Shown in pieces: positions 57,001-63,000 of a DNA stretch of 64,000 nt. A program made the position numbers. Location: NCBI GenBank assembly GCA_037379345.1, contig CM074518.1, forward strand, positions 27,156,001-27,220,000. Reading direction: 5' to 3'. Position 1 is the stretch's first letter, and each line of letters opens with the position of its first letter. This DNA comes from Perna viridis. Taxonomy: Eukaryota.

Positions 57001-60000
57001 AATCGTCGAGCACTCAATAATTGGGTTGTACCTGTTGCATGGAGATTTTTAACATTTCGGATAATATTTCATCATTTTCATGTATATCTTGCATCATGCA
57101 CGTGCATTCTTATGATTTTCGCTAGATTTTAGTTACCTCGATTACTCGTTTTCATAAATTAAACGCAATCGGCTAAATGTTGATCTCTTTTTTGAGCAGT
57201 GTGGGATTTACATTGTTGTAATTATAATCATATTGGATTTAACGAACTTGAACTGCCACTGGCGGGCTGAACATAATTACCCTTCCATAGCACACCATAA
57301 CCTTCCAGATGTTTGGATGATTTAATTTTGCAAGTAGTCTAGTTTCTTATGTATCTTGTTTTCCTTATCTTTAGTATTATGTTTGTAAAATTTATTTCAT
57401 CCTTTTTGCTATACATGGTGTATGTTGGATTCTAATTTTCACGATCAATAGTTAATAGCTTGTGGTAATCCGGTCCATTATGTAGCAGTATACTGTGGCG
57501 AAAGCTATGTTTTTTTTTTTCATCATAAATATGTAATCAATTAATTTATCTTTCCATTTAGCTAATGTTAAAACTTTGTCACAAACCAAATTAAGAATAA
57601 TAATCTATGTGTACATATTTTAAGTAATTGTGTACGATTGATACGCTAAAGTAAGCATATTTTAAGCATTGTGTATCATGGTTATTTGTTGTTCGTATCA
57701 TTAAGATTAAGATAACATTCGTAAATATTGATTGCACTTTTGCGGTATGTTCGTCAGATTCTTCTGCAATTTTTCAACTGGATATTAGGCAATGAAAACT
57801 GTTAGAGAATTTTTCCTGATGTTGGTCGCATTTTCAAATTACTTTGTCTTCTCAGCTGAATACATACAAATAATGCTTAAAGGATCGATAAATGTAAATA
57901 TGCAGACAAAAAACTCTCTCATAATACTAGTCGTTCATTGTATTAGACAACGTCTTGAAAATAAATGTCAAAATGTGAAACATTGTAAATGTATAGGTAG
58001 GAATTTGACTTATTCATTTACACATATTAGGAACCTCTGAACCAATTGTTTCATAAAATTGCACTGTAATCAACTTCCAATTTATAAATCAGACTCTCTG
58101 TCTCAACTTTTTTTTGTTGCGTGATCAATTGAATATGTAATCAATTTTTCGAAATGATATGACAATTTCCACCCATTACGTGATTCTAGTGGGGCCGATA
58201 TGGAAATGTACTGTAAAAGTACCAGTACTCAAAACGATTCAACCTGGTTATTGAGGAAGATATTTACGTAGGTATATTGGTATAACGTAGCTATAAATAA
58301 TCATACAAACAAATTCATTAGTATTTCTTAGAAAGAAATAACGCTGTTGTACAATAGAAACTACCTCTTTTTTATTTCTAAAACATCAATTTTAATAAAT
58401 GAATTGATATAAAATATATAACATAATATTGCATAATACTAGTTATCAAGTTAAGCAATTATCCAAATCTTTAAAATATCTGAGCCTCGCTATAAAAATT
58501 CAGCTTTTCAAGTCTTCAAGAATTCGTTTTTCTGTATTTGTTGACAACTGCATGAACATCGTTTTTATGTTCTTTAGCTTTGTTTATCAACAACTGCATA
58601 TTCACATCCATCATCTCCCGGTGCAATTACATGTTTAACAGAGGACGAACTGTCATCCCTGTCCTCATATGGTTTTTCGCCCTCATTATCATAGGATTCT
58701 TTTTCATCTTTGATTTTGTCATTGTTACGAGTCGCATTTGACTTAATTTGATAATTCGGTAGTTCATTCAAGTCTATTTCGCTACAGTTTGTCTCTACTT
58801 CATAAGCGACATGATGTATACCCTCTTTCTTCAATTCTTTACGACTGTTTATAATATCATGTACTCCATCATCTTCATGCAAAGCGTATAAACTGTTGTA
58901 CTGAAGTCCATATTCATCGTTGTCCTCTTGTTGTTCGTTATTTGTCTTTGCTTTCCTCCTATGTAAATTAAAACATTTTTACACTATGAAATACTGTCAT
59001 AAACTTTTATTTTCAACGGAACTGTATAAATAATATAGTTCAACATTCTAAAATCATTTCGAAATTCCACTGTTATTTTCGAGATATATTGAATTGAACA
59101 CTAGTACTAGTACTGGTAAGATCATTGCATATGCATTAAGATTTTAATTAAAGAATTCCTTATTTACTTCAACACATGATATATTGATAGTCATTACTAA
59201 TAGTAAGACCAATCAATTAAGTTATATTTTTGGTAGGCCTTGCCATAAGGATTATTTTATGTTTCTCTTTATATGTTAAGGCTTTCAACATAAAGGTCTA
59301 CACAGCCAAATTTTATTTGCACTTTCAATGACAAAACTTAATAAAAGGAATTGTAGAAACTTCATTCAATCGCGACGCATTGGAGTTTTAAAAGATGTCA
59401 TATAAATATTTCTAACCAATAGTTCCCTTAGCAGTCGGATCATTTCATTTTTTCAACGTTTCCTATGATAAATTATTAATCGTAAGATGTAAAGTGCAGA
59501 ATGCTATCCGTCCCCCCTTTCAAGGGAATATATCGTTTTAACAATATCCTATTAACATTCTTGTATGCTTATCATTAATATCATTTCATTAACTGAAAGT
59601 TTCTTTCTTTATTATATTATGGCTTCCAATATACTATGAGGAAGGTGAAATCTTAAACGCTCCCGAAAAAAACATATGCATTCAAACACCTAAGTCCTTT
59701 CATAATTTTTGTCAGCCCTGTGATCATCATCTTTTAAAGTTGTACAAGGTGTCATGATATGCGTTTTTTTTTATATTTTCATAATGCAAACTCCTATCGT
59801 CATGGTCTAATATTTGTATGGGCCGAAATGTCCAACTTCGGTAAGGAACTGAGGGTTGTCATGGTTCGAAATGTCTTTGAGTCGAATTGTCCGGTATTGA
59901 TAAGCTGATTACGAACACAACATTCGGGTGTCATGTTTTGACCATCCGTATATAGGAATGATTTCAGAGGAGACTATAATTTTTACACTTTTAAGGACGA

Positions 60001-63000
60001 ACGACGAACAACAGACAAAAGATTAACTTTGAACGATAGGGGATTGCAGCAGCACAAACAACCAAACAAAACAAAGCAATATTCTGCTGCACCGTGTGGA
60101 TGAACTTGATGCTAATATATGTTTTTCTTTTATTGTGTAAGATTATATTCATACAATGGTTTTAGTGTAATAATCTGTTGAAAGTATGCAATCTGATTAA
60201 ATTGGGAAGAAAATTATCATTACCTTGATTTTATTATGAAAAAAATTATTATCAGTACAATAAGTCCAACTCCACCAAACCCACTGCCAATGACTATGTA
60301 CAGATTGTGGTAGCTTTCTGCAATATTCAACATACATACGAACAATTATCATACTAACAGGGTTGACAAAATTAAAAGATAAAACAAGTTCGTTGAAGTC
60401 AATGTTGAAGAACAATATTTTAAAAGCATAATATAAGAAATTAAAAAAAAGAAAATTAGATTAAATTCATGATCAAATTATACTCATGCCAAGATTACAA
60501 GTCTAACACAAATTTTCAAAACATAAACGGGTATCATATAAATTCACATCAGCGATAATATAAAACGTATATTTTAACTTCATGAAATGGCAATAAAAAT
60601 AGGTAAAAAACATATAGTTAGTTCCCCATTTTAAGGATGTGTTTAGAAATAAAAACAAATTGTATTAATCCTTCCCATGTTCTGGCATTCTATTAAATCG
60701 TTACCGTCATCTTTATTCCTAAGTTTATCGTTTGTATTTCCTTTTGGACTCCCTTGCCATAAATCAGTCTGATTACAAGTAATATTTAGCCTATTACCTC
60801 GGTCTATAAAATTAGAGAGATAATGTTCAGTATTTTGAAGACACTAAAGTGCATAGATCCAGTAAAATAATGCAAGTTATAAATATTGTTTACATATGGT
60901 TGATTCAGATCAATTTAAATTAATTATAAGCATCACTTGTATCATTTGCATAACTAACAATTGCATTGATTATTGTAAAAACCTAAGAACCTTCGTTAAG
61001 CTTTTGTATACGCTATTCACTAAATTGATTATTTCATTGTTATTTATATGCTATTTTGTACTTACCTATTGAAATGCTGAAACAGTACCTTGATTCTGCA
61101 GCAAGGGTTTCTTTGATAAATGTAATATCAAGATTTTGTGACACATTAATGGGCATCGAACCGTTTATAGCACAGCTCTGTGTTATACTTTGAAACGCAT
61201 GCTGATAAAAAATTACTTTGCTATTACAATTACTACTTTTCAATGGAGGCCAAAATTGGTATCCTTGAAAATGGATGTAATTGGCGGTGTCGAATACTGC
61301 TTTCGCTGTGCACGTACAGCTTTTGACTGATTCGTTGGTGCTAAGATTTCCGTCTATCACAAAAATACTCTTTTGAGAGACTGTTGAACCAGAGCAAAAT
61401 CTGATCACTGAAAAACAACATGATCTGAGTTACTCTCCTTTGTCAAGCTTTTAAAATATGTATAAACATTGTACAAATACGAATTCATATTCAAAATTGG
61501 TTTAAAGGGATAATGCTTTTTGCGGATATTGATATGCTTTTGATAAAACATAAGAAATATGAAAGCAATATGGAATGAGTTTTGTTTGTGCGCTCTAAGT
61601 ACATTTTTGTCACATTAACATGAATTAATTATCTGCAACACAACGGCATTTCAATATTGTCGAATGTAAACTAAATAAGCAATATGTTATCGCGTCTAAA
61701 CGCAGTATTTTCCGAAGAGACCGTGAATTAAACAAGTGTTACCTGAAATTATTTTTTTTCTTTTCAAAATAAGTTAAAGTCAGAGGTCAATTCGCGTATG
61801 ACGTGGACTTTTGTTTTTTCGATGATTTGAATATTTGTATTGTAATGGATATCAAATTAAAACGGCACTTACAAGGGAGGTTCCTGTTATTTGCTTCATC
61901 TGCACAATCGCTTCCGACCGATGAGGATGTTACTAAATCAATAACTATAAAAAGAAAGTACAAACTTCAGACTTACTTATTTGTATACGACAATTCAAAT
62001 CATCAAGTGAAATATGATTTATTTTTTTCAGAGGATTCAAAATTGCTACTTAGCGTTTTATTTTCTGTTGCCGTCAGAGATTGATTCAAATGTAGTATCA
62101 CTTCTATTATAATTGCAAGAGAATAAGAGTATCGATGAAAACTAAAATAACAGGTGCAATTAAAGAAATGCACAAAAAAGACGATCAACTGAATAACATG
62201 TAGGGCAAAATTAAAATATCTATAGGTCTTATTATGCATAAAAAAATCAAAGAAAACAAAACGCCCCATCATTGTGTGTTATTAAATGATTCTAATAATA
62301 ATATTGTGTTGAAGGTTTCCAGAAGATCTTTCATTTTTTCAGGATCTAGATTGAATAAATACCACTACGGTAGTAACAAGTATTGAGGTAGAGCTGGATA
62401 CCTTCTTTTACAGCTGTGTATATAGAAGTTAGAAGTTTTGTAAGTGGTTTGGAGGTACATTTTGTAGATCCAGCTATTTAGCGTTAAGTGTATGGATTCT
62501 TGTCGAGTTTAGGAATCAAGTACATAGACGGTAAATCACAATCGTCTCATCGGTAGATAAATCAAAATAGGACAGCACAAGTTTGTGGTTTTCCACTATT
62601 TCTTTTCGGAGAGTGTTGTAGCAGTATAGGTCTGGCTACAAAGGCAATAAATCGATTGTACAATAAGTGTAAATTGAGTACTACTTACAGTTACAATATT
62701 AGATATAAGGAGCTTACAGATATAGAGTTTCTACTATTCTTAGAAATTAAACATACCTACGTTGTTGGTAACACAAAGTATCAGCATTCGCATTTGTATT
62801 ATTAATTTTCCGTATTTATGACCCATAACAACTACAAAATAATAAAATAGTCTATAAACCAATCCATTGTATAAAATCACGTTGAGATTAATTTCGTTAT
62901 ATGGCTTCTAAGATAGAAGTGCAATATGAATGAGTCTGTCTTTACATGTATATACTGAAAAGTAATGTTTTGGTGATACCCAATTATAAAGAATAGCAAG

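What the first reader, a model, noticed from the sequence alone, without database searches (positions are those of the whole stretch)
58574..62826. Gene A is a complete, apparently unannotated 353-aa receptor ORF
Six exons join without frameshift into signal peptide, 8-Cys domain and stalk with six N-x-S/T sequons, GxxxG-containing TM, basic stop-transfer KSRRK and an acidic Tyr tail. Only exons 3 and 6 appear in the ORF track. It is the best functional candidate in the window.
Basis: seen in the sequence. Interest (0 to 1): 0.7.

Follow-up and report, generated by a model that had tools for sequence, protein, structure and literature searches.

The report
Bivalve single-pass receptor-like gene
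The six-exon gene looks real and encodes a membrane glycoprotein of a small, uncharacterised bivalve-mollusc family, but its receptor role, expression and exact ends are still unproven.

Summary
On the minus strand, six GT-AG exons total 1062 nt, giving 353 codons plus TAA, with intron phases 1,1,1,1,2. The mature ectodomain has 8 Cys and 6 sequons. There is a 24-residue hydrophobic segment with GxxxG, then KSRRK, then an acidic tail with 8 Tyr.

It is not chance. Exon 3 belongs to a narrow protein family: 14 hits among 1.84 billion representatives, and the named ones are uncharacterised proteins of Mytilus trossulus, Crassostrea virginica and Ylistrum balloti. I take the contig for bivalve, not human.

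Four further copies lie in the window on the same strand. All four are damaged. Two keep the same exon boundaries and phases where these could be read.

No Pfam or PDB sequence match exists. A confident model of the oyster relative is a beta-sandwich that resembles CUB domains only weakly.

Caveats:
- There is no RNA evidence.
- The N-terminal hydrophobic core is interrupted by Gln and Arg.
- The stop codon coincides with a 2-nt gap relative to a paralogue.
- "Unannotated" and "receptor" remain untested.
- The exons were never joined.

The parts
62757..62826 (-). Exon 1: ATG plus 23 codons and 1 base (MGHKYGKLIIQMRMLILCVTNNV). It is the putative signal-peptide exon, with donor G|GTATGT and phase 1.
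   Evidence: It has the best donor among ATG-initiated phase-1 candidates upstream of exon 2. Best 8- and 12-residue Kyte-Doolittle windows score 2.26 and 2.28, within the range of the relatives' N-termini. A candidate exon 1 of the 26k paralogue is also 70 nt but has a weak donor. This is the least secure exon.
61873..61944 (-). Exon 2: ..IDLVTSSSVGSDCADEANNRNLP. It carries the first ectodomain Cys and is phase 1 to 1.
   Evidence: Counterparts end in 'LP' followed by a phase-1 GT donor at 27198.., 38095.. and 14392... A Cys lies at the matching position before the domain in P0003, P0006 and P0014.
61066..61407 (-). Exon 3: a 113-residue core of the family's Cys-rich ectodomain, with 6 Cys including CxC, CNS (CGS in the relatives) and RYCF. 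Phase 1 to 1.
   Evidence: BLASTP to Mytilus trossulus XP_063400020.1 gives E 8e-11 and 31% identity over 108 columns. The window-derived profile hits P0001 at E 7.5e-30.
60705..60803 (-). Exon 4: a short stalk (RGNRLNITCNQTDLWQGSPKGNTNDKLRNKDD) holding the eighth Cys and two sequons. Phase 1 to 1.
   Evidence: The acceptor and the LxLTCNQT motif are conserved at 24800.. and 1969... A Cys lies shortly after the domain in P0003, P0006 and P0014.
60224..60317 (-). Exon 5: the transmembrane exon (NLYIVIGSGFGGVGLIVLIIIFFIIKS). Phase 1 to 2.
   Evidence: 19-residue window 2.63. The 36k paralogue has an exon 5 of the same 94 nt. NLYIxIGxGxG is shared with P0003, 9 of 16 identical.
58574..58958 (-). 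Exon 6: a 127-residue acidic cytoplasmic tail with 8 Tyr, including LQYNSL (fits the ITIM consensus) and C-terminal CEYAVVDKQS, then TAA.
   Evidence: It is homologous to the 36k paralogue's tail exon (tblastn E 2.2e-10). YAVVDK is identical in P0003.
58516..58573 (-). The stretch after the stop is still homologous to the paralogue's coding tail in the +1 frame (KEHKNDVHAVVNKYRKTNS, then TGA).
   Evidence: The DNA alignment shows a 2-nt gap in Gene A exactly at the stop. The frame is listed (58516..58626).
58371..58396 (-). ATTAAA (58396..58391) and AATAAA (58376..58371), about 180-200 nt after the stop. These are possible polyadenylation signals.
   Evidence: The evidence is weak: the hexamers occur once per 914 and 711 nt on this strand.
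62315..62633 (-). A fragment of an interspersed repeat inside intron 1.
   Evidence: It is 81% identical to 47707-48025 and 78% identical to 35055-35367.
31195..38095 (-). The '36k' paralogue. It has the same exon plan (exon 2 60 nt, exon 3 354 nt, exon 4 234 nt, exon 5 94 nt with a GC donor, then exon 6). Its tail exon has an in-frame TAA, and homology continues beyond it.
24380..27571 (-). The '26k' paralogue is a pseudogene. It has a frameshift inside exon 3, a TAG in exon 4, and an exon 5 that is 8 nt shorter.
1934..3461 (-). The '3k' paralogue is a pseudogene. Its domain is spread over three frames.
52442..52534 (-). A remnant of the 3' end of a family domain (..SYCFKLEI), abutting repeat-derived sequence.
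   Evidence: one search gives E 1.1e-4.

Best explanation
Gene A is a genuine, probably still intact protein-coding gene of a bivalve mollusc. It belongs to a small, fast-diverging and so far uncharacterised bivalve family of type I membrane glycoproteins.

Read exon by exon, the product has these parts:
- a moderately hydrophobic N-terminal leader;
- one N-glycosylated ectodomain of about 150 residues, with eight conserved Cys and a CUB-like beta-sandwich fold;
- a very short stalk;
- one Gly-rich transmembrane helix;
- a 127-residue acidic, probably disordered tail with tyrosine motifs.

The most likely working, which is inferred and not shown, runs as follows. The ectodomain binds an extracellular ligand. 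The signal is passed on by phosphorylation of tail tyrosines, chiefly LQYNSL, which fits the ITIM consensus. These then recruit SH2-domain proteins. That would make it an immune-type or recognition receptor.

The gene sits in a same-strand tandem cluster that evolves by duplication and decay: 4 of the 5 copies in the window are broken.
For: Shown:
- The exons are in frame with canonical splice sites.
- Open frames of this length are unlikely by chance, below 1e-3 each for exons 3 and 6.
- A profile of the window's three exon-3 copies finds 14 proteins at E<=1e-3 among 1.84e9 representatives. The best is 7.5e-30.
- 13 of these 14 share the Cys framework. The fourteenth, P0013, is a bacterial Big_2/LRR protein.
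- Of the 10 hits looked up, the 3 that carry an organism name are all bivalve 'uncharacterized protein' records.
- Exon 3 against XP_063400020.1 gives E 8e-11.
- Invariant columns are C30, C32, C60, S62, C78, Y107 and C108. Near-invariant columns are C4, D18, G82 and D104.
- The full-length relatives P0003, P0006, P0010 and P0014 have a hydrophobic N-terminus, the domain, a hydrophobic TM-like segment and a Tyr-bearing tail.
- Exon boundaries and phases are conserved in the paralogues.
- The TM motif NLYIxIGxG and the tail motif YAVVDK are shared with the Mytilus protein.
- LQY(N/A)x(L) is present in Gene A, in the 36k paralogue (LQYNTL) and in P0003 (LQYAEL).
- The AF2 model of relative P0014 gives pLDDT 75-92 over residues 30-155, all beta.
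- Foldseek's highest target-normalised TM-scores are to the spermadhesin CUB domains 1sfp (0.56) and 1spp (0.53).
- Every named lead from the protein-language-model search, for two different family members, lies in the CUB, CUB_2, CRF-BP_N or AGRB_N group.

Established knowledge (recalled): extracellular modules flanked by phase-1 introns are typical of metazoan surface proteins.

Literature: ITIM signalling through SH2 phosphatases works in bivalves. The oyster CgNCAM1-SHIP2 axis shows this (PMC11841013, abstract read).
Against: - No transcript evidence of any kind could be obtained.
- No close relative of exon 3 exists in the 5.8-billion-cluster collection, whether near-length or longer. Conservation of this particular gene is therefore unproven.
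- Four of the five copies in the window are decayed.
- Gene A's stop coincides with a 2-nt gap relative to the 36k paralogue, which cuts about 19 ancestral codons. This could be early decay or an assembly indel.
- The leader's hydrophobic core holds Gln and Arg.
- With 8 Tyr in the tail, one ITIM-consensus match is roughly a 4-in-10 chance event (my estimate).
- The best-conserved tail motif, AVV(D/N)K, persists where the Tyr is absent: LDAVVNK in P0010, NTVVDK in the 36k paralogue and VHAVVNK after Gene A's stop. It may therefore not be a phosphotyrosine motif.
- CUB-likeness is weak. Foldseek E-values run from 4e-4 to 1e-2 among many other jelly rolls, and no Pfam CUB hit appeared in 0 of 11 members scanned nor in the relatives.
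- CUB-likeness also rests on a model of a relative. Exon 3 modelled alone reached only pLDDT 42.6.
Confidence: 0.6

Rival explanations
1. Gene A is a recently silenced or never-expressed copy, an open-frame pseudogene, in a decaying tandem array. Its intact frame only reflects youth.
For: - Four of the five family copies in the window carry frameshifts, nonsense codons or a repeat disruption.
- Gene A shows a 2-nt gap at its stop relative to the 36k paralogue.
- Intron 1 carries a repeat insertion.
- The leader is atypical.
- No close protein exists in the big collection.
Against: - All six exons are open, with five canonical GT-AG introns.
- All invariant family residues are kept in exon 3.
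- The C-terminal truncation leaves every recognised part in place.
- Chance openness over 353 codons is about 1e-10 at this strand's stop density.
Confidence: 0.2
2. The gene is real, but the protein is an endocytic, sorting or adhesion glycoprotein and not a phosphotyrosine-signalling receptor. On this reading the tail tyrosines act as YxxPhi or NPxY-type sorting signals, or have no signalling role.
For: - YNSL and YAVV in Gene A also fit YxxPhi.
- The relatives carry NPLY and NPVY (P0006, P0010) and YDDI and YEEI.
- P0003 and P0006 have Ser/Thr-rich mucin-like stalks of several hundred residues, as adhesion or barrier glycoproteins do.
- The AVV(D/N)K motif is conserved without Tyr in some copies.
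Against: - LQYxxL recurs in three family members.
- YEEI in P0014 matches what I recall as the preferred Src-family SH2 ligand.
- ITIM-type signalling is documented in oysters (PMC11841013, abstract).
- Nothing tested here separates the two readings.
Confidence: 0.25
3. The six 'exons' are chance open frames in AT-rich DNA, chained by chance GT/AG dinucleotides.
For: - GT and AG are frequent.
- Exons 1, 2, 4 and 5 are short.
- No Pfam match was found.
Against: - Family homology reaches E 7.5e-30 (profile) and 8e-11 (pairwise).
- Exons 2, 4, 5 and 6 have homologous counterparts with the same boundaries in paralogues.
- The stop-density calculation argues against chance openness.
Confidence: 0.01

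Closest known systems
Uncharacterised bivalve proteins XP_063400020.1 (Mytilus trossulus LOC134684646, P0003), XP_022291757.1 (Crassostrea virginica LOC111103049 isoform X2, P0014) and XP_060071629.1 (Ylistrum balloti LOC132551498, P0010)
   Same: - The N-terminal Cys-rich domain is homologous. Profile E-values are 4.2e-12, 5.8e-4 and 1.7e-4, and pairwise to P0003 is 8e-11.
- The order of parts is the same: leader, domain, TM, Tyr-bearing tail.
- NLYIxIGxG at the TM start and YAVVDK and LQYxxL in the tail are shared with P0003.
   Different: - Identity in the domain is only 23-31%.
- Gene A's stalk is one 33-codon exon, whereas P0003 and P0006 have Ser/Thr-rich stalks of several hundred residues.
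- The tails are otherwise unalignable.
- None of these proteins has a described function. A literature search on six accession or locus names found 0 papers.
CUB-domain single-pass membrane proteins (Neto1/2, neuropilins, CDCP1, DCBLD2). The architectures of the last two are recalled from general knowledge, not from a call.
   Same: - It would work in a similar way: a jelly-roll beta-sandwich ectodomain on a single TM helix, with tyrosine-phosphorylated tails in CDCP1 and DCBLD2.
- Foldseek lists Neto2 chains in 6 of the 43 rows shown, spermadhesin CUBs in 2 and PCPE-1 in 1.
- The language-model leads all lie in the CUB, CUB_2, CRF-BP_N or AGRB_N group.
   Different: - No Pfam CUB match appears for Gene A's exons, for 11 family members or for the full-length relatives.
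- It has eight Cys with a CxC motif, not the four-Cys CUB pattern.
- It has a single domain.
- The Neto2 matches have rmsd 17-28 A and partly reflect the shared TM helix.
ITIM-bearing inhibitory receptors of invertebrates, such as oyster CgNCAM1 (PMC11841013, abstract read) and mollusc Siglec homologues (PMC5877582, one passage read)
   Same: - Type I topology.
- A cytoplasmic motif that fits (I/V/L/S)xYxx(I/V/L), namely LQYNSL.
- A bivalve host in which SH2-phosphatase signalling from ITIMs has been reported.
   Different: - The ectodomain is not Ig, FN3 or lectin.
- Only one consensus ITIM is present.
- No binding, expression or phosphorylation data exist.
Hydractinia Alr gene family in the allorecognition complex (bioRxiv 10.1101/2022.03.04.482883, abstract and section headings read)
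   Same: An analogy only:
- a clustered, highly diverse family of single-pass surface proteins with pseudogenes;
- domains that standard sequence motifs do not recognise but that structure prediction does;
- ITAM or ITIM motifs in the tails.
   Different: - It is in a different phylum.
- Its fold is different (Ig V-set and I-set).
- No evidence here points to polymorphism or allorecognition.

Membership tests
Uncharacterised bivalve 8-Cys ectodomain membrane-protein family (XP_063400020.1-like) | Significant sequence homology of the ectodomain core | tested here: met
   Profile search: 14 hits at E<=1e-3, best 7.5e-30. BLASTP of exon 3 against P0003: E 8e-11, 31% identity.
Uncharacterised bivalve 8-Cys ectodomain membrane-protein family (XP_063400020.1-like) | Conserved Cys framework: C..CxC..C(G/N)S..C..(R)YC, plus one Cys before and one after the core | tested here: met
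   Alignment A2 holds 15 sequences, made of 3 window copies and 12 of the 14 hits. P0009 (a fragment) and P0013 (bacterial) were left out. C30, C32, C60, C78 and C108 are invariant and C4 is near-invariant. The flanking Cys lie in exons 2 and 4 of Gene A and in P0003, P0006 and P0014.
Uncharacterised bivalve 8-Cys ectodomain membrane-protein family (XP_063400020.1-like) | Architecture of leader, domain, (stalk), single TM and Tyr-bearing tail | tested here: met
   Each part was found on its own exon in the right order and phase and compared with P0003, P0006, P0010 and P0014. The joined product was not built or analysed.
Uncharacterised bivalve 8-Cys ectodomain membrane-protein family (XP_063400020.1-like) | The gene is transcribed and spliced as modelled | not testable with these tools
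   No eukaryotic transcript or genome collection was open. P0006 (557 aa) lies whole on a 2195-nt contig, which suggests that a family member is transcribed. That is inference only.
CUB domain (Pfam PF00431 and its clan) | Match to the family HMM at or near the curated cut-off | tested here: not met
   None of the 6 exon translations matched. None of the 11 family members matched at E<=10. No CUB hit appeared for P0003, P0006, P0010, P0014 or P0001 at E<=1.
CUB domain (Pfam PF00431 and its clan) | Jelly-roll beta-sandwich fold superposable on solved CUB domains | tested here: inconclusive
   The model is of relative P0014, not of Gene A, with pLDDT 75-92 in the domain. Foldseek gives 1sfp at E 1.4e-3 and TM(target) 0.56, and 1spp_B at 3.6e-3 and 0.53. 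Non-CUB jelly rolls score similarly. Language-model leads score 0.82-0.89, below the 0.9 line.
CUB domain (Pfam PF00431 and its clan) | Four conserved Cys forming two neighbouring disulfides (recalled definition) | not tested
The Cys count here is eight, with a CxC motif.
ITIM-bearing inhibitory immunoreceptors | Cytoplasmic (I/V/L/S)xYxx(I/V/L) motif | tested here: met
   LQYNSL lies in exon 6. LQYNTL is in the 36k paralogue and LQYAEL in P0003. One match among 8 Tyr is not unlikely by chance.
ITIM-bearing inhibitory immunoreceptors | Tyrosine phosphorylation and recruitment of SH2 phosphatases, with an inhibitory effect | not testable with these tools
   This needs experiments.
ITIM-bearing inhibitory immunoreceptors | Ig-superfamily or C-type-lectin ectodomain (usual, not obligatory) | tested here: not met
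   No Pfam family was found on any exon.

The most novel reading that the evidence does not exclude
Gene A and its relatives form a bivalve-restricted receptor family that has never been described. Its ectodomain would be a sequence-unrecognisable CUB-like fold with four disulfides, coupled to ITIM-type tails. The family would be organised in rapidly turning-over tandem clusters, making it a new class of invertebrate inhibitory or self/non-self recognition receptors, comparable in logic to the Hydractinia Alr genes.
Probability: 0.15. Interest if true: 0.6.

Novelty: new member of a known kind. Interest (0 to 1): 0.3.

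Why it matters
If the gene is expressed, it adds a compact member with almost no stalk to an uncharacterised bivalve family. 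That family has no Pfam model and turned up in no paper in my searches.

The family combines a disulfide-rich CUB-like ectodomain with tyrosine-motif tails. Here it shows birth-and-death evolution within 60 kb. Lineage-specific, fast-evolving surface receptors of this kind are candidates for bivalve innate immune recognition.

In practical terms, the locus shows that ORF-based tracks miss four of the six exons. It also shows that a profile built from the window's own paralogues was needed to find any relative at all.

Tried and rejected
- Pfam on each of the six exon translations gave nothing beyond noise on the TM exon.
- Pfam on five relatives and on 11 family members gave no family.
- A PDB sequence search with the family profile returned one hit at E 0.84, which I take as noise.
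- Three word-indexed protein searches found nothing: exon 3 'longer', exon 3 'near', and family alignment A3 'longer'. The tool itself calls this weak evidence.
- AF2 on exon 3 alone with three sequences gave pLDDT 42.6. It was unusable and was not sent to fold search.
- Rfam and tRNA scans of the window returned 0.
- A protein alignment of the 36k tail failed because my coordinates were out of frame. I used the tblastn alignment and per-frame translations instead.
- Searching for better exon-1 candidates upstream of exon 2 found more hydrophobic ORFs at 62272..62152.
- Literature searches returned 2 general lectin and PRR reviews for bivalve+ITIM+receptor+Mytilus, 0 papers for 'CUB domain'+ITIM+bivalve, and 0 papers for six accession or locus names.

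Not used:
- Complex prediction, because I make no binding claim.
- Genome contigs, which holds bacteria and archaea only.
- The phage, plasmid and E. coli collections, which are irrelevant to a mollusc gene.

Full report
**Observation.** I read the region on the minus strand and recomputed the model exon by exon.

| Exon | Coordinates | Length (nt) |
|---|---|---|
| 1 | 62826..62757 | 70 |
| 2 | 61944..61873 | 72 |
| 3 | 61407..61066 | 342 |
| 4 | 60803..60705 | 99 |
| 5 | 60317..60224 | 94 |
| 6 | 58958..58574 | 385 (includes TAA) |

The lengths sum to 1062 nt, which is 353 codons plus a stop. All five introns are GT-AG and their phases are 1,1,1,1,2. Every exon is open in the frame its neighbours require.

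- Eight Cys lie in exons 2-4, distributed 1+6+1. A ninth sits in the leader.
- Six sequons are present, four of them inside the domain and two in the stalk.
- A 24-residue hydrophobic stretch contains GSGFG, followed by K-S-R-R-K across the exon 5/6 junction.
- The 127-residue tail has 31 acidic against 16 basic residues, and 8 Tyr.

Only exons 3 and 6 appear among the 20 stop-to-stop frames of 110 aa or more in the window. At this strand's stop density of 0.063 per codon, open frames as long as exons 3 and 6 are each expected at below 1e-3. No whole-protein prediction, search or fold of the spliced product was made.

**Source organism.** The window is 27-37% G+C. It has two N runs that I only located, and no tRNA or Rfam match. 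The only named relatives of its genes are bivalve proteins. I take the contig for a bivalve mollusc, possibly a mytilid mussel, and not for human.

**It is a member of a real family.**
- No exon has a Pfam match.
- Word-indexed searches with exon 3 found nothing, either near-length or longer.
- The window itself holds further copies of exon 3 on the same strand: at 36959..36615, at 26597..26355, at 3362..3118, and a remnant at 52534..52442.
- A profile of three of these copies (A1), scored against 1.84 billion representatives, found 14 proteins at E<=1e-3. Four were at E<=1e-10, and the best was 7.5e-30.
- Thirteen of the 14 share the Cys framework. The fourteenth, P0013, is a bacterial Big_2/LRR protein and I discard it.
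- I looked up 10 of the 14. Three carry organism names, and all are 'uncharacterized protein' records: Mytilus trossulus XP_063400020.1, Crassostrea virginica XP_022291757.1 and Ylistrum balloti XP_060071629.1. The other seven come only from unnamed contigs.
- Exon 3 aligns to the Mytilus protein at E 8e-11 with 31% identity.
- In a 15-sequence alignment, C30, C32, C60, S62, C78, Y107 and C108 are invariant, and C4, D18, G82 and D104 are nearly so.
- The full-length relatives also have a Cys just before and just after this core. Gene A has the matching Cys in exons 2 and 4. The '8-Cys domain' is therefore a family feature.

**The exon model is supported by the paralogues.**
- Counterparts of exon 2 end in '..LP' followed by a phase-1 GT donor at three other places.
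- The exon 4 acceptor and the LTCNQT motif recur at 24800.. and 1969...
- The 36k paralogue has the same plan with phases 1,1,1. Its exon 5 is exactly 94 nt, although it has a GC donor.
- Exon 6 is homologous to the 36k tail exon at E 2.2e-10.
- Exon 1 is the weak point. It has the best donor among upstream candidates, and a 70-nt candidate exists upstream of the 26k copy. It has no sequence-level support.
- Its hydrophobic core, LIIQMRMLILCV, contains Gln and Arg. Its Kyte-Doolittle scores (2.26 and 2.28) are no worse than those of the annotated relatives' N-termini (1.5-3.4).

**Gene A is the only unbroken copy.**
- The 26k copy has a frameshift in exon 3, a TAG in exon 4 and an exon 5 that is 8 nt shorter.
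- The 3k copy needs three frames.
- The 52k remnant abuts repeat sequence.
- The 36k copy has an in-frame TAA in the middle of its tail exon, with homology continuing beyond it.
- Gene A is not spotless either. Aligned to the 36k copy, it has a 2-nt gap exactly where its TAA stands. The paralogue's coding sequence stays recognisable for 19 more codons in Gene A's +1 frame, reading KEHKNDVHAVVNKYRKTNS and then a stop.
- Gene A's tail is therefore probably truncated relative to the ancestral one, unless this is an assembly indel.

**Fold.**
- Exon 3 alone with three sequences folded poorly, at pLDDT 42.6.
- The oyster relative P0014, folded with the 15-sequence alignment, gave a confident all-beta domain, with pLDDT 75-92 over residues 30-155 and nine or ten strands.
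- Foldseek against the PDB gave only weak matches, 2 of them at E<=1e-3.
- Among the 43 rows shown, CUB-domain proteins recur. Neto2 appears 6 times, spermadhesins 2 and PCPE-1 once.
- The highest target-normalised TM-scores are to spermadhesins (0.56 and 0.53). Other jelly rolls score similarly: collagenase PPC and CBD domains, GOLD, PliG and Cry domain III.
- The language-model atlas gave only CUB, CUB_2, CRF-BP_N and AGRB_N families as named leads, both for Gene A's exon 3 and for P0004. All scored 0.82-0.89, which is lead level.
- Pfam CUB matches none of the 11 members, and the PDB holds no sequence relative.
- I conclude that the domain is a CUB-like beta-sandwich in shape but is not shown to be a CUB family member.

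**Tail and likely working.**
- The tail is acidic and Tyr-rich.
- LQYNSL fits the ITIM consensus. It recurs as LQYNTL in the 36k copy and as LQYAEL in the Mytilus protein.
- YAVVDK is identical in the Mytilus protein.
- Other relatives carry NPxY, YDDI or YEEI.
- The most likely mechanism, which is inferred, is ligand binding by the ectodomain followed by phosphotyrosine signalling through SH2 proteins.
- ITIM to SH2-phosphatase signalling has been reported in oysters (PMC11841013, abstract; PMC5877582, one passage).
- Against this, one consensus ITIM among eight Tyr is not improbable by chance. The AVV(D/N)K motif also survives without its Tyr in several copies. The same tyrosines fit sorting signals. 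An endocytic or adhesion role is therefore a live rival.

**Novelty.** The family is present in public databases, but only as uncharacterised proteins. It has no Pfam model. My three literature searches aimed at it found no paper describing it. A fourth search was only for bivalve ITIM signalling. Supplements were closed and were not needed. Gene A is a new, divergent member with almost no stalk. Clustered, fast-turning-over receptor-like families are common in bivalves, and they have a conceptual parallel in the Hydractinia Alr cluster (abstract and headings read). A specialist would find this plausible and not surprising.

**What stayed unchecked.**
- The existing annotation of this assembly.
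- Signal-peptide and topology prediction on the spliced product.
- Disulfide pairing.

Noticed in passing
window 58516-58580 (-): Gene A's TAA coincides with a 2-nt gap relative to the 36k paralogue. The ancestral tail continues in the +1 frame for 19 codons and contains a second AVV(N)K motif (VHAVVNK). This is either a real truncation or an assembly indel.
   Followed up: partly
window 1934-3461, 24380-27571, 31195-38095, 52442-52534 (all -): Four further copies of the same gene family sit in tandem on the same strand, and all are damaged. The damage includes frameshifts, TAG and TAA nonsense codons, an 8-nt shorter TM exon, a GC donor and a repeat disruption. The 3k and 26k copies are close to each other.
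   Followed up: partly
window 14330-14392 and 15944-16016 (-): An orphan exon-2-like piece (..THSVNSNACTDYANVSGLP plus a GT donor) has a plausible leader exon upstream (MSITKVKAAFSTCTVVAFIFTVAS, donor GTGAGA). No family domain was detected downstream. It may be a remnant of a sixth copy.
   Followed up: no
window 4486-5199 (+), 29181-29519, 32215-32553, 34200-34600, 44965-45426, 46412-48179, 52600-52800; also 62315-62633 inside intron 1 of Gene A: An interspersed repeat with degenerate ORFs (for example ..FISQLIRYARACRNYADFLYR..) occurs many times on both strands.
   Followed up: partly
window 52850-52912 (-): There is a weak tail-like match (TAVKHIISHGENVREYEIAEK against ..VKHVIAPGDDGCEYAVVDK, tblastn E 0.12). 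It could be the last trace of another tail exon.
   Followed up: no
window 38120-38240 (-): A short tandem repeat (about 43-nt units, 'attgtatacacgtgaatcac(g/t)tgataatgacattttc') lies just upstream of the 36k paralogue's exon 2. I saw it by eye.
   Followed up: no
window 29917-30107 and 42782-42996: There are two runs of N. One lies within repeat sequence between the 26k and 36k paralogues. I left them as they are.
   Followed up: no
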